In this document: positions 8,819 through 36,059 of the stretch, piece after piece
Layout of the letters: each line of letters opens with the position of its first letter
Numbering within the stretch: the first letter of the stretch is position 1
Source: Elusimicrobiota bacterium
GTDB lineage: Bacteria; Elusimicrobiota; Elusimicrobia; F11
Direction: 5' to 3'
NCBI GenBank assembly: GCA_044221725.1
Contig: JBGAON010000001.1
Location: 288,001-352,000, forward strand
DNA length: 64,000 nt
Program-made: the position numbers and the translations under genes
The notes under the pieces: generated by a model
Told to the model about the DNA's origin: nothing
The model's input: the letters and a program-made list of their open reading frames with translations, nothing else
Database searches by the model: none

Positions 8819-8850
8819 ATTTTTGCTACCATCCGTCGCACAGTAGCACC

Positions 8851-8961
8851 CTTATCAAGAGTGGTGGAGGGATTGGCCCAACGAAACCACGGCAACGGTT
8901 CGACTAAACTCGAATACGTGCCAAAGCCAGTTCGCCAGACGTTTGGCGAATAACCGATAAG
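8851..8961 (+). promoter_or_regulatory. SAM-I (S-box) riboswitch aptamer
   Basis: CTTATCAAGAG-TGGTGGAGGGA-TTGGCCC-AACGAAACC-ACGGCAAC...GTGCCAA...GATAAG; P1 CTTATC/GATAAG. Confidence 0.93.
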
Positions 8962-8971
8962 AGGAACAGTT

Positions 8972-9005
8972 AGCCCCAGAAGGGAAACTTCCTCTGGGGT
9001 TTTTT
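8972..9005 (+). terminator. Intrinsic terminator of the SAM riboswitch expression platform
   Basis: CCCCAGAAGG-GAAA-CTTCCTCTGGGG followed by a T run, 5 nt before the ATG. Confidence 0.85.
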
Positions 9006-9010
9006 AATTT

Positions 9011-10273
9011 ATGACGACAACGAAAATCAAAGGTCTCAAATGCAAGGAGTGTGGACGGCTTTTCGAAGCCAAGGCGCTGCACGTCTGCGAATTTTGTTTT
9101 GGTCCGCTCGAAGTTGATTACAACTACGACCTAATCAAAAAAACGGTCACGCGCGAATCCATCGAATCGGGGCCGCTGTCCTTGTGGCGCTATTGGGGGC
9201 TGCTTCCGGTTGAATCGAAAGACGTCATTACGCTGCAGGAAGGTTTCACTCCACTGGTTCACGCAAAAAATCTCGGCAAAGCTCTTGGGTTAAAAAATCT
9301 TTACGTTAAAAACGATACAGTAAATCCCACATTCTCGTTCAAAGATCGCGTCGTTAGCGTCGCGCTCACGCGCGCGCGCGAACTTGGTTTTAAGACGGTT
9401 GCCTGCGCGTCAACGGGGAATTTGGCGGGGGCCGTCTCCGCTTATGGAGCTGTGGCTGATCTCAAACGATTTGTGTTTATCCCAGCCGACCTGGAAGAGG
9501 GAAAAGTTATTGGTGCCGGTGTTTACAATCCGATCATCGTCGCTATCGAAGGGACCTATGACGAAGTGAATCGTCTCTGTTCGGAAGTGGCGGACGCTTT
9601 CAAGTGGGCGTTCGTGAACGTGAACATTCGCCCCTATTACGCCGAGGGTTCGAAGACGCTCGGATTTGAAGTTGCCGAACAACTGGGATGGAAAGCACCG
9701 GATCAGGTGGTGGTTCCGGCTGCATCGGGTTCCCTGCTCACAAAAATTTACAAAGGTCTGAAAGAATTTGAACAACTCGGCCTCATTCCTGCGCACAATA
9801 CGAAGTTGAATTGTGCTCAGGCAGCGGGTTGCGGGCCCATCGCGGCCGCGATTCAAGAAGGTACCGATTTGATCCGGCCGGTCCGTCCGAAAACGATCGC
9901 GAAATCGTTGGCGATTGGAAATCCTGCCGACGGCGTTTATGCGTCTCAGCTCGTTTTAAAAACCGGCGGCCAAGGTGTTTCCGTCACGGACGACGAAATT
10001 GTGGAAGGTATTAAACTGCTTGCTTCCACCGAAGGAATTTTCACAGAGACCGCGGGTGGTGTGACGGTCGCTTCCTTGAAACGCTTGGTCCAAACTGGTA
10101 GAGTCGCCGCCGACGACGTGACCGTGGTTTATGTGACCGGGAACGGTTTGAAAACATTGGATGCGGTCCAGGGCAAAGTCAGCAAACCCCACGTCATTCC
10201 TGCTCGTCTGCAAGATTTCAAAAGTCTGTTTGAGAAATTACAGAGTAAGGTCCCTGAGCAGGTAACTGCATAA
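9011..10273 (+). CDS. Threonine-synthase-like PLP enzyme, probably O-phosphohomoserine sulfhydrylase (MetM-like)
   Basis: N-terminal CxxC..CxxC, NPTFSFKDR PLP lysine, ASTGNLA, YYAEGSKT, TGNGLKT; context of SAM box and sulfur carrier. Confidence 0.85.
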   Translation: MTTTKIKGLKCKECGRLFEAKALHVCEFCFGPLEVDYNYDLIKKTVTRESIESGPLSLWRYWGLLPVESKDVITLQEGFTPLVHAKNLGKALGLKNLYVKNDTVNPTFSFKDRVVSVALTRARELGFKTVACASTGNLAGAVSAYGAVADLKRFVFIPADLEEGKVIGAGVYNPIIVAIEGTYDEVNRLCSEVADAFKWAFVNVNIRPYYAEGSKTLGFEVAEQLGWKAPDQVVVPAASGSLLTKIYKGLKEFEQLGLIPAHNTKLNCAQAAGCGPIAAAIQEGTDLIRPVRPKTIAKSLAIGNPADGVYASQLVLKTGGQGVSVTDDEIVEGIKLLASTEGIFTETAGGVTVASLKRLVQTGRVAADDVTVVYVTGNGLKTLDAVQGKVSKPHVIPARLQDFKSLFEKLQSKVPEQVTA

Positions 10274-10286
10274 ATTTGGAGGATTC

Positions 10287-10568
10287 ATGCCCGCGAAAGT
10301 ACGGATTCCAGCACCACTTCGAAAGCTTACGAACGACCAAGCGGTCGTCGAAGTGCAAGGCAAAAATATTCAGGAATTGCTCGCCAGCCTCGACAAGAAT
10401 TATCCGGGGCTAAAAGACCGAATTTGCGACGAATCGGGTCAGATTCGTCGGTTCGTCAACATCTTCGTTAATGGAGAAGATATCCGCTTCAAAGATGGCC
10501 CGAACACCAGCGTTGCCGAAGGTGCTGAAGTGTCGATCATTCCAGCCATTGCTGGCGGCTCGTTTTAA
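10287..10568 (+). CDS. MoaD/ThiS/CysO-family ubiquitin-like sulfur carrier
   Basis: VRIPAPLRKLT, RRFVNIFVNGEDIRF, C-terminal IIPAIAGG-SF. Confidence 0.92.
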   Translation: MPAKVRIPAPLRKLTNDQAVVEVQGKNIQELLASLDKNYPGLKDRICDESGQIRRFVNIFVNGEDIRFKDGPNTSVAEGAEVSIIPAIAGGSF

Positions 10569-10625
10569 ACAATCCCGTAGCATTCGCCTCTTGAAATCAA
10601 GCTGTTTTCGAGGCAAACTAGTGTC

Positions 10626-10865
10626 ATGAAGCAAGCGTTGAGTCTCACGTTTCCGTCGAATTTGATCAGAGAACCGATCATTCATCAGATGTCGAAAAAA
10701 TTTGATGTCGTGTTTAATCTCCGTCGTGCAAAGATCACGGAGAAGATTGGCGAAATCGTTTTGGAGTTGGAAGGACAAGAAGAAGCCCTGCGAAAAGCTG
10801 AAAAGTGGCTGAACGATCAAGGGCTCAAAGTCGAACCGATAACAAAGGATACGCTGGAAAGCTGA
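10626..10865 (+). CDS. Stand-alone NIL-domain protein
   Basis: LTFP..LIREPII.....F.V.FNLRRA.I....GE.VLELEG matches NIL domain. Confidence 0.85.
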   Translation: MKQALSLTFPSNLIREPIIHQMSKKFDVVFNLRRAKITEKIGEIVLELEGQEEALRKAEKWLNDQGLKVEPITKDTLES

Positions 10866-10870
10866 CGAAT

Positions 10871-11473
10871 ATGACCAGTGATGTGCTCGTCCTAAATAGA
10901 AGTTTCTTTGCTGTTCAGGTCATTGACTGGCGGCGCGCTCTTAGTTTGGTTTACCTCGATCATGCGCGTGTGGTGGACGAAGATTACCGAACCTACTCGT
11001 TCGAAGATTGGCGCGAGCTGTCGTCCGAAATAACAACCAACCCTTCCGGATTTGTTCACACGCCTTCTTTCAAAATTGCCATTCCCGATGTAATAACGCT
11101 GCGCTACTTCGACGGACTTCCAAAATCCGAAGTAAAGTTTACGCGCCGCAACATTTACGAGCATTACAACTACAAGTGCGCGTACTGCGGAATCAAATTT
11201 ACGTCGAACGAGCTTAATTTGGAACACGTCATTCCGCGCAGTCGTGGCGGAAAGACCGATTGGTCCAACGTCGTCACCTCGTGCATTCCATGCAACCTCA
11301 GAAAAGGCAGTCGTTTGCCCAGCGAAGCGAACATGAAGCTGTTGGTCAAGCCCACGAAACCGAAATGGAGCGGTACGGCCGCGATCGCGTTTCGCCCGGG
11401 TTTCAAAGTTCGTGCCTCGTGGCAACGGTTTGTTGATAATATCTACTGGAATACCGAACTCGATCCTCAATAA
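10871..11473 (+). CDS. HNH endonuclease (McrA-like family)
   Basis: VLVLN, FTRRNIY, CAYCG, NLEHVIPRSRGG..W.NVVTSC..CN..KG. Confidence 0.9.
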   Translation: MTSDVLVLNRSFFAVQVIDWRRALSLVYLDHARVVDEDYRTYSFEDWRELSSEITTNPSGFVHTPSFKIAIPDVITLRYFDGLPKSEVKFTRRNIYEHYNYKCAYCGIKFTSNELNLEHVIPRSRGGKTDWSNVVTSCIPCNLRKGSRLPSEANMKLLVKPTKPKWSGTAAIAFRPGFKVRASWQRFVDNIYWNTELDPQ

Positions 11474-35573: not shown

Positions 35574-35925
35574 GGGGGTGACCTGGTTTCGACGGTGGTT
35601 GTGTGAGTGATTGTTGCAGGTCGGGGTTGGTCGACGGCCCCGTTATCAAGTCGGCCAAACTAGTAACTGCCAACTCGCAAGAGATGGCTCTCGCAGCCTA
35701 ATACGCTGTGACGTTCTGCCCGAAACGCCCGGTATCGGGACAGAACGCCATTACCGGGATCGGTTGGTTGGGCGCGTCTCGTCCCAATTGGCTTAAATCA
35801 AACGAGGCTGGCCGTGCCGCGGTTCTGTCTCGTGACAACGACGCGGCGAGATAAAAGACGAGGCTAAACCTGTAGCGACAACACAAATGCCCCATCGGAC
35901 GCGGGTTCGATTCCCGCCACCTCCA
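35574..35925 (+). ncRNA. ssrA: tmRNA; tag peptide (A)ANSQEMALAA at 35669-35701
   Basis: 5' GGGGGTGA..GGTTTCGAC; 3' GGACGCGGGTTCGATTCCCGCCACCTCCA; G3:U70 pair; TAACT-GCC resume context. Confidence 0.96.
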
Positions 35926-36059
35926 GTCTTCGCACTACAACCTAATTAATTTAATAAGGATGTAGTGCTACGCCTGGCAGGCCAGTCGAGCATCGTTCGG
36001 AGCGAAGCGAAATTAATAAAGGCGAAGACTGTCCCGCGTAGCCAACGGCGAAGTGGGAC
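35926..36059. repeat. Composite REP-like palindromic element (right of tmRNA, inverted relative to the left one)
   Basis: CTTCGCACTACA..TGTAGTGCTACGCCTGGCAGGCC plus GGCGAAGACTGTCCCGCGTAGCC..GGCGAAGTGGGAC. Confidence 0.7.

What the first reader, a model, noticed from the sequence alone, without database searches (positions are those of the whole stretch)
8851..10865. SAM-riboswitch operon: threonine-synthase-like enzyme, sulfur carrier and NIL protein as a probable alternative homocysteine/methionine pathway
Seen: a complete SAM-I aptamer and terminator directly precede a ThrC-like PLP enzyme, a MoaD/CysO-like protein and a lone NIL domain. Known: SAM-I switches repress Met/Cys supply genes; ThrC acts on O-phosphohomoserine; thiocarboxylated carriers donate sulfur (CysM/CysO). 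From memory, a ThrC-like MetM with carrier MetO makes homocysteine in Streptomyces. NIL domains bind Met/SAM in MetN and occur in methanogen homocysteine synthesis. Inference: the enzyme would be misannotated as thrC, and the separate NIL subunit may be an undescribed allosteric partner of this route.
Basis: partly seen in the sequence, partly recalled or inferred. Interest (0 to 1): 0.7.

Follow-up and report, generated by a model that had tools for sequence, protein, structure and literature searches.

The report
SAM-controlled MetM/MetO operon with NIL protein
This is a methionine-regulated operon for a route to the methionine precursor homocysteine first published in 2024 (a mislabelled "threonine synthase" fed sulfur by a small carrier protein), plus a small, probably methionine-sensing NIL protein whose job is not yet known.

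Summary
Observation confirmed. A SAM-I riboswitch (Rfam 81 bits) with a terminator precedes a 420-aa ThrC-like enzyme, a 93-aa carrier ending GG-Ser-Phe and a 79-aa stand-alone NIL domain. The genome (94% complete) has a separate hom-thrC, plus thrB, moeZ, a JAMM protease and metH. MetA, MetX, MetB/Y/Z, DUF39 and MoaE were not found. The enzyme falls in a clade apart from ThrC (99/99) with a changed active-site motif and has no internal Met. The NIL tracks MetM: 14 of 17 MetM genomes versus 0 of 104 others in the phylum sample. It keeps the MetN Met-binding Asn295 and Ala299, and gave weak predicted binding to MetM (0.57, control 0.01). It is not found in some actinomycete MetM genomes, so it looks accessory. 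It is often fused behind the carrier's GG, but MoeZ is too, so the fusion shows a cleavable polyprotein, not the partner. Feedback subunit of MetM: about 0.4. This scan noted the same operon in at least eight findings on other genomes.

The parts
8849..8963 (+). SAM-I riboswitch aptamer (RF00162)
   Evidence: 81.3 bits, E 1.3e-17, complete model; only copy found in the genome
8972..9005 (+). Expression platform: terminator hairpin with U6 tract; its 3' arm can alternatively pair with the P1 3' strand (antiterminator)
   Evidence: folding; not called by the simple scan
9011..10273 (+). MetM-type PLP enzyme (ThrC paralog), predicted thiocarboxylate-dependent homocysteine synthase; N-terminal CxxC...CxxC, PLP Lys111, clade motif N-x-N-x-R-P-Y-Y
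10287..10568 (+). MetO-type ubiquitin-like sulfur carrier; GG followed by a Ser-Phe tail that a JAMM protease would have to remove
   Evidence: PF02597 67.9 bits; 52% identical to the carrier of the Nonomuraea SAM-I operon; tail
10626..10865 (+). Stand-alone NIL (MetN C2-like, ACT-fold) protein; candidate methionine-sensing accessory subunit
   Evidence: PF09383; model pLDDT 87.8, top Foldseek hits MetN C2, rmsd 1.1 A; N31/A35/G42 align to MetN N295/A299/G310
10871..11473 (+). HNH-family gene 5 nt downstream; possibly co-transcribed, probably not part of the pathway
   Evidence: PF14279; directly follows NIL in only 3 of 80 homolog loci, all Elusimicrobiota

Best explanation
The operon makes homocysteine for methionine synthesis by the MetM/MetO thiocarboxylate route and is switched off when SAM is plentiful. 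SAM stabilises P1, the terminator forms and transcription stops (inferred from folding). Hom and ThrB supply O-phosphohomoserine. The JAMM protease (G000 C3:830354-830845) removes Ser-Phe to expose the carrier's GG, and MoeZ (C4:357214-358371, ThiF plus rhodanese) adenylates and thiocarboxylates it. The PLP enzyme replaces the phosphate with the carrier's sulfur, homocysteine is released, and MetH or the split MetE-like pair methylates it. Shown here: genes, motifs and genome inventory. Taken from the literature: the chemistry. The NIL protein is most likely an accessory, methionine-binding dimer that regulates the route after translation. My single best guess is feedback control of MetM at the O-phosphohomoserine branch shared with ThrC (about 0.4; inferred). 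The stated confidence is for the MetM/MetO core.
For: Regulation: SAM-I directly upstream, also at 12 of 14 hand-picked homolog loci and at 4 actinomycete MetM-carrier loci. Genome: separate hom-thrC, 35% identical; thrB; MoeZ; JAB with a JAMM motif beside cysM and sir; MetH. Not found: MetX (27), MetA (31), MetB/Y/Z beyond 20-32-bit fragments (25, 58), DUF39 (57), MoaA/C/E (122). All 17 of 17 MetM-type genomes in a 121-genome phylum sample have a second ThrC-like match, a carrier (108) and a JAB (107). The tree puts 25 MetM-type rows on one side of a 99/99 branch, apart from 16 ThrC rows. R207 and Y210 are invariant in 71 of 71, whereas all 16 ThrC rows keep an Arg just before the EG motif. 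No internal Met in 419 residues, as in only 4 of 1154 long ORFs. For NIL: carrier at 75 of 80 and NIL at 57 of 80 homolog loci; 14 of 17 versus 0 of 104 genomes; first gene behind the riboswitch in L054, L074, L082, L084; MetN N295/A299 kept. Predicted 2:2 MetM-NIL complex: weak support, score 0.57, best of 3 controls 0.01, runs agree in at least 64% of contacts, partner pLDDT at least 76. The mark was reached by 116 of 157 solved and 2 of 215 mismatched pairs, but at 0.60 or under by only 18 solved pairs and both mismatches.
Against: No direct comparison with S. albulus MetM/MetO was possible (paper not held). The Microcystis homolog (51.6% to S. albulus MetM) made threonine from O-phosphohomoserine and deaminated threonine in vitro, and its induction did not raise methionine in cells. 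The enzyme passes NCBIfam threonine-synthase cut-offs. The riboswitch is not universal: over cut-off in 2 of 17 phylum MetM genomes and in 4 of 15 further loci. 13 of 17 MetM genomes have another homocysteine route. The genome is 93.9% complete, so absences are 'not found'. NIL is missing from 3 of 17 phylum MetM genomes and from 38 of 64 actinobacterial ones at the 95-bit level, and of 20 unlinked actinobacterial NIL loci only 2 lie near moeZ/mec/cysM. NIL lacks MetN's Y303-G306 loop and has an Arg (47 of 48) where MetN has Ile, so its ligand may differ.
Confidence: 0.85

Rival explanations
1. The enzyme is a second, SAM-regulated threonine synthase or deaminase, and the carrier serves something else (for example CysM).
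For: Passes ThrC family cut-offs. The Microcystis homolog made threonine and alpha-ketobutyrate in vitro. The genome has cysM-mec-sir without its own carrier and no cysE match, so the carrier may be shared with cysteine synthesis.
Against: A canonical hom-linked ThrC exists. SAM repression, Met depletion, carrier adjacency at 75 of 80 loci, the lack of any other homocysteine route in this genome and the altered motif all point to Met. Several loci hold both metM and thrC in one run, for example L030, L105, L107, L128.
Confidence: 0.08
2. Core as in the best explanation, but NIL acts on the sulfur-delivery side (carrier, MoeZ or JAMM protease), steering a shared carrier between cysteine and homocysteine synthesis.
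For: NIL is fused to the carrier in a large family (top 120 of 900 hits all carry both domains) and also to JAB (P0015, cluster of 4) and ThiF (P0135, single). It often sits between carrier and moeZ.
Against: The fusion keeps the internal GG (119 of 120 by pattern, the last with a one-letter variant upstream), so it must be cut. MoeZ is fused at the same position in other genomes, so the fusion may only reflect gene adjacency. The MetM-NIL prediction passed weakly; NIL-carrier and NIL-MoeZ were not modelled.
Confidence: 0.25
3. NIL is a non-regulatory helper or acts on another aspartate-pathway enzyme (Hom, ThrB, ThrC), and travels with metM only as part of a methionine regulon.
For: Many actinobacterial NIL genes lie away from metM beside unrelated genes. 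3 of 29 such genomes have no MetM match. The operon is embedded in hom...thrC runs in several loci.
Against: Near-exclusive co-occurrence with MetM in two phyla and a weak MetM-NIL pass.
Confidence: 0.25
4. The enzyme is a cysteate synthase or another beta/gamma-replacement enzyme of sulfur metabolism.
For: Cysteate synthase derives from ThrC (title of a reference seen).
Against: TIGR03844 63 bits against a cut-off of 325; PDB cysteate synthase only 32 bits.
Confidence: 0.02

Closest known systems
MetM/MetO/Mec/MoeZ thiocarboxylate route of Streptomyces albulus (Hasebe et al. 2024, Appl Environ Microbiol 90:e01247-24; seen only through passages of 10.1101/2024.10.14.618325, the supplement of PMC13759103, and PMC12172450)
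   Same: ThrC-like enzyme next to a sulfur carrier, upstream SAM riboswitch, Mec-like JAMM protease and MoeZ in the genome; 55% and 52% identity to the enzyme and carrier of an actinomycete (Nonomuraea) SAM-I operon.
   Different: Extra stand-alone NIL gene (not named among the route's steps in the GapMind text or supplement); carrier tail Ser-Phe; host probably Elusimicrobiota (nearest named homolog 84%).
Threonine synthase ThrC (TIGR00260; PDB 2zsj, 1uim)
   Same: Fold-type II PLP enzyme, PLP lysine motif, likely the same substrate.
   Different: Separate clade; R207/Y210 in place of the N/R of the ThrC motif; a true ThrC is encoded elsewhere.
MetN C2 (NIL) regulatory domain of the MetNI importer
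   Same: Same fold (rmsd 1.1 A to 3tuz); N295, A299 and G310 positions kept. Met binds across the C2 dimer through N295 (PMC6233128 passages).
   Different: Stand-alone, no transporter attached and no other NIL in the genome; four-residue loop missing; conserved Arg33 and Glu47.
NIL-ferredoxin (MA1822 type) of the DUF39/L-ASST homocysteine route
   Same: NIL domain tied to homocysteine synthesis and proposed to mediate Met feedback (PMC12068725, 10.1101/192971 passages).
   Different: No ferredoxin here and no DUF39 found in the genome. That type scores in a separate class (55-72 bits, 135-151-aa frames).
JAMM-processed carriers QbsE/QbsD and CxnE/CxnF
   Same: Residues after GG removed by a JAMM protease; QbsE has a two-residue tail (PMC5925218 passages).
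   Different: Secondary metabolism; here tails range from none to a whole NIL or MoeZ domain.

Membership tests
SAM-I riboswitch (RF00162) | Covariance-model score above the gathering cut-off over the full model | tested here: met
   81.3 vs 44.4 bits, positions 1-108
SAM-I riboswitch (RF00162) | SAM binding and SAM-dependent termination | not testable with these tools
   Only a computed terminator/antiterminator pair
MetM/MetO route | ThrC-homologous enzyme distinct from the genome's threonine synthase | tested here: met
   Second ThrC in hom-thrC; separate clade 99/99
MetM/MetO route | Adjacent GG-type sulfur carrier | tested here: met
   PF02597, AGG-SF; carrier at 75 of 80 homolog loci
MetM/MetO route | Mec-like JAMM protease and MoeZ in the genome | tested here: met
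MetM/MetO route | Orthology to the characterised S. albulus MetM | tested here: inconclusive
   Sequence not available. Indirect: same clade as actinomycete SAM-I/carrier loci; the Microcystis 'thrC (metM)', 51.6% to S. albulus MetM, shows the same R-P-Y-Y motif in a supplement table, read by eye
MetM/MetO route | Thiocarboxylate-dependent homocysteine formation from O-phosphohomoserine | not testable with these tools
   Needs an assay
Threonine synthase ThrC | HMM cut-off (TIGR00260, PRK08197) | tested here: met
   296 vs 167 and 303.9 vs 303 bits; GapMind notes that MetM is often misannotated this way
Threonine synthase ThrC | N-P-x-(x)-R motif before EG (T. thermophilus Arg160; its phosphate-binding role is recalled, not from a call) | tested here: not met
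   R-P-Y-Y in the window, R207 and Y210 in 71 of 71 homologs; Arg kept in 16 of 16 ThrC rows
Cysteate synthase (TIGR03844) | HMM cut-off | tested here: not met
   63.2 vs 324.9 bits
MoaD of molybdopterin synthesis | MoaA/MoaC/MoaE partners in the genome | tested here: not met
   No tblastn match with E. coli MoaA, C, D, E at 1e-3; only faint phmmer hits; single-query search in a 94% complete genome
NIL domain (PF09383) | Pfam cut-off and MetN C2 fold | tested here: met
   60.8 vs 24 bits
NIL domain (PF09383) | Methionine binding at the dimer interface | tested here: inconclusive
   N295-equivalent in 40 of 48, A299-equivalent in 48 of 48, but the Y303-G306 loop is absent; binding itself is untestable here

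The most novel reading that the evidence does not exclude
The stand-alone NIL is a trans-acting, methionine-sensing regulatory subunit of MetM-type homocysteine synthase: a NIL dimer docks on the MetM dimer and throttles it when Met is high, dividing O-phosphohomoserine between Met and Thr. In many lineages it is made as a ubiquitin-style polyprotein behind the carrier's GG and released by the JAMM protease, which would couple carrier activation to 1:1 production of the regulator.
Probability: 0.4. Interest if true: 0.62.

Novelty: new variant of a known kind. Interest (0 to 1): 0.4.

Why it matters
The route fills methionine gaps in many uncultured lineages whose enzyme is labelled thrC. Here it is the only homocysteine route found in the genome. 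Price et al. 2017 noted that some bacteria, including Acidimicrobium, had no known homocysteine pathway, and MetM-carrier pairs are common among Acidimicrobiales loci. The R-P-Y-Y motif gives a simple way to re-annotate these genes. If NIL is a detachable Met sensor, it would be a feedback layer not found described for this route and is easy to test with three small proteins. It would also show bacterial carrier-GG polyproteins used to deliver a partner protein.

Tried and rejected
The primary paper (Hasebe 2024) could not be read by PMC id or DOI, so it may already mention NIL; its supplements are also unseen. A word-indexed search for longer NIL relatives found none; the profile search did find fusions. 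Reading the carrier-NIL fusion as proof of carrier-NIL binding was rejected because MoeZ is fused at the same place. Mutual exclusion with other Met routes was rejected (13 of 17 have another). A universal riboswitch was rejected (2 of 17). HomK (TIGR02535) was not found in the genome; ThrB supplies the substrate instead. PALP-NIL 'fusions' P0039 and P0117 look like frameshift or chimera artefacts and were not used. The HNH gene was rejected as a pathway member (3 of 80 loci). No paper confirming the role of ThrC Arg160 was found. In one search the term 'ThiS' matched the word 'this', so that search only shows zero occurrences of 'NIL domain-containing' in the 15 papers listed. Only MetM-NIL was modelled as a complex; NIL-carrier and NIL-MoeZ were not.

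Full report
OBSERVATION. Rfam finds a complete SAM-I aptamer at 8849-8963, 81.3 bits against a cut-off of 44.4, the only one found in the genome. The leader folds far better than shuffles (z -4.5). A bulged hairpin at 8972-9001 (-18.1 kcal/mol) ends in six U. When the transcript is cut at 8995 the best fold instead pairs the P1 3' strand with the hairpin's 3' arm, which gives a workable on/off switch. The simple terminator scan missed this hairpin. Three ORFs follow: a 420-aa PALP enzyme, a 93-aa ThiS/MoaD-family protein ending AGG-SF, and a 79-aa NIL domain. An HNH gene follows 5 nt later but is linked in only 3 of 80 homolog loci. The nearest named homologs are Elusimicrobiota (84%).

GENOME INVENTORY (2.82 Mb, 93.9% complete). 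A second, short ThrC lies directly behind hom and is 35% identical to the window enzyme. ThrB is present, as are MoeZ with ThiF and rhodanese domains, a JAB protein with a JAMM motif between cysM and a sulfite-reductase-like gene, PAPS-reductase-family genes, MetH and a split MetE-like pair. Not found: MetX, MetA, MetB/Y/Z (only 20-32-bit partial matches), DUF39, and MoaA/C/E and CysE by single E. coli queries. The only other ThiS-family gene sits with thiG. So the cell can make O-phosphohomoserine and methylate homocysteine, and this operon is the only candidate found for the step between.

THE ENZYME IS NOT THE THREONINE SYNTHASE. In a 121-genome phylum sample, 17 genomes have a match of at least 520 bits, with a gap down to 281; all 17 also have a second ThrC-like match. 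A tree of 42 hand-picked rows puts 25 such enzymes from many phyla on one side of a 99/99 branch, apart from 9 long and 7 short ThrC rows; the outgroup branch is long, so the root is uncertain. The group includes actinomycete loci with SAM-I, enzyme and carrier (Nonomuraea 55% and 52% identical). Its motif is N-x-N-x-R-P-Y-Y, with R207 and Y210 invariant in 71 of 71, whereas 16 of 16 ThrC rows keep an Arg just before EG. By the alignment, Y210 sits at T. thermophilus Arg160; that this Arg binds phosphate is recalled, and a search found no paper for it. The window enzyme has no internal Met, as in 4 of 1154 long ORFs (mean 2.07%); homologs average 0.74% against 0.5-2.9% in the ThrC rows (kin are not independent). 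This fits the cognate-bias idea (PMC4209129, search listing only). Cysteate synthase is excluded (63 vs 325 bits).

WHAT IS KNOWN. GapMind 2026 (10.1101/2024.10.14.618325, passages; supplement of PMC13759103, passages) lists the S. albulus thiocarboxylate route of Hasebe et al. 2024 as MetO, Mec, MoeZ and MetM, and says MetM is often misannotated as threonine synthase; 'NIL' occurs 0 times in its text and in its 6 supplement files. PMC12172450 (passages, section 9 and supplement rows) states that S. albulus metM has an upstream SAM riboswitch and that the Microcystis homolog is 51.6% identical to it. That homolog shows the same R-P-Y-Y motif by eye, but in vitro it made threonine and alpha-ketobutyrate, which is the main result against an exclusive Met role. 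The primary paper was not held, so orthology is indirect and it may mention NIL. JAMM removal of residues after GG, including a two-residue tail, has precedent (PMC5925218 passages). Searches that did not show NIL described for this route.

LIMITS OF THE PATTERN. The route is not exclusive: of the 17 genomes, 8 have MetX and a MetY/B-type gene, 5 have DUF39, and 4 (including this one) have neither. All 17 have a JAB and a carrier (non-MetM genomes were not searched as a control). The riboswitch was found at 12 of 14 loci that I chose as close relatives or NIL-first loci, but at only 4 of 15 others and over cut-off in 2 of 17 phylum genomes.

THE NIL PROTEIN. Among the best 80 of 519 homolog loci, 75 have a carrier and 57 a NIL within 4 kb (45 of 63 with fuller flanks; the profiles were built from these loci). 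In the phylum sample the profile splits into a class of at least 98 bits (14 genomes) and one of at most 72.5 bits, mostly in 135-151-aa frames, probably NIL-ferredoxin; I set the threshold at this gap after seeing the scores. All 14 are among the 17 MetM genomes, and 0 of the other 104 have it. In 151 genomes of an actinobacterial phylum sample, 64 have a MetM-level match and 29 a NIL of at least 95 bits, 26 of them with MetM (61, 28 and 26 of 147 when the four unpublished genomes G126, G173, G245, G213 are left out). Three large-genome actinomycetes with SAM-I, metM and carrier (G149, G164, G179) had no NIL match, so MetM seems to work without it. Of 20 unlinked actinobacterial NIL loci fetched, 2 lie near moeZ/mec/cysM and most beside unrelated genes. 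In four loci NIL is the first gene behind the riboswitch. Its model (pLDDT 87.8) matches the MetN C2 domain best. N31, A35 and G42 align to MetN N295, A299 and G310 and are kept in 40, 48 and 48 of 48; N295 contacts Met bound across the C2 dimer (PMC6233128 passages). A four-residue loop is missing and a conserved Arg is added, so the ligand could differ. A NIL domain is also proposed to give Met feedback in the DUF39 route (PMC12068725 passages).

FUSIONS. The profile search returned carrier-NIL, JAB-NIL, ThiF-NIL and NIL-NIL proteins. Carrier-NIL is a real family: of 900 hits the top 120 all carry both domains, the internal GG is kept (119 of 120 by pattern) and is followed by Ala or Ser in 117 of 119. 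Five of 80 metagenome loci are fused, all directly behind metM, and two genomes of this phylum have the fusion. Because the GG must be freed, these are cleavable polyproteins. MoeZ is fused at the same point in three genomes printed, so the fusion does not identify NIL's binding partner.

COMPLEX. Two MetM (1-412) plus two NIL gave weak support: 0.57, best of 3 controls 0.01, runs agreeing in at least 64% of contacts, partner pLDDT at least 76. The mark was reached by 116 of 157 solved complexes and 2 of 215 mismatches, but at 0.60 or under by only 18 solved ones and both mismatches; the counts hold only roughly for this job.

VERDICT. The core is very probably a MetM/MetO homocysteine operon (0.85), a published route. 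The variant feature is the NIL protein, for which feedback control of MetM is my best guess (0.4), ahead of a role on the carrier side (0.25) or another or non-regulatory role (0.25). Earlier notes of this scan reached the same reading on other genomes (8 findings, consulted after my reading was formed; none near this place); they are not independent support. Novelty: new variant of a known kind. Interest 0.4.

Noticed in passing
G000:C3:625944-627930 (-) (L287): Two adjacent ~340-390-aa MetE half-like genes (best match PRK04326, below cut-off): a split or archaeal-type cobalamin-independent methionine synthase, alongside a full MetH.
   Followed up: partly
G000:C3:829359-832631 (L012:6359-9631): cysM-like, JAMM protease and sulfite-reductase-like genes in a run with no carrier of their own; no cysE match in the genome. 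Cysteine may be made by a CysM/thiocarboxylate route sharing the operon's carrier.
   Followed up: partly
L271, L272, L276, L049: Carrier fused to MoeZ/ThiF behind an intact GG: a second kind of cleavable polyprotein.
   Followed up: partly
L054, L074, L082, L094: Two NIL paralogs upstream of metM; in L054, L074 and L082 the SAM-I riboswitch lies between them, so only the second is under it. Tandem NIL-NIL proteins also occur (L088, P0001, P0003).
   Followed up: no
L237-L241: Actinobacterial sister subclade of MetM (motif R-P-W-Y in the two rows aligned) with no carrier in the fetched flanks; function unexplained.
   Followed up: no
L030, L105, L107, L109, L120, L128: hom, moeZ, (mec), metM, carrier, NIL and a ThrC-like gene in one run: both branches from O-phosphohomoserine in one cluster.
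   Followed up: partly
window 10871-11473 (+): HNH-family gene 5 nt after NIL, kept at this position in three other Elusimicrobiota loci.
   Followed up: partly
window 8990-9010: metM has no clear Shine-Dalgarno; its ATG lies 5 nt after the terminator U tract, and a G run inside the terminator's 3' arm could act as a sequestered ribosome site (inference).
   Followed up: no
P0015 / P0157 / P0159; P0133: JAB-NIL fusion (cluster of 4) and a NIL-GNAT fusion among profile hits.
   Followed up: no
window 35574-35928 (+): tmRNA, plus seven tRNA matches elsewhere in the window.
   Followed up: no
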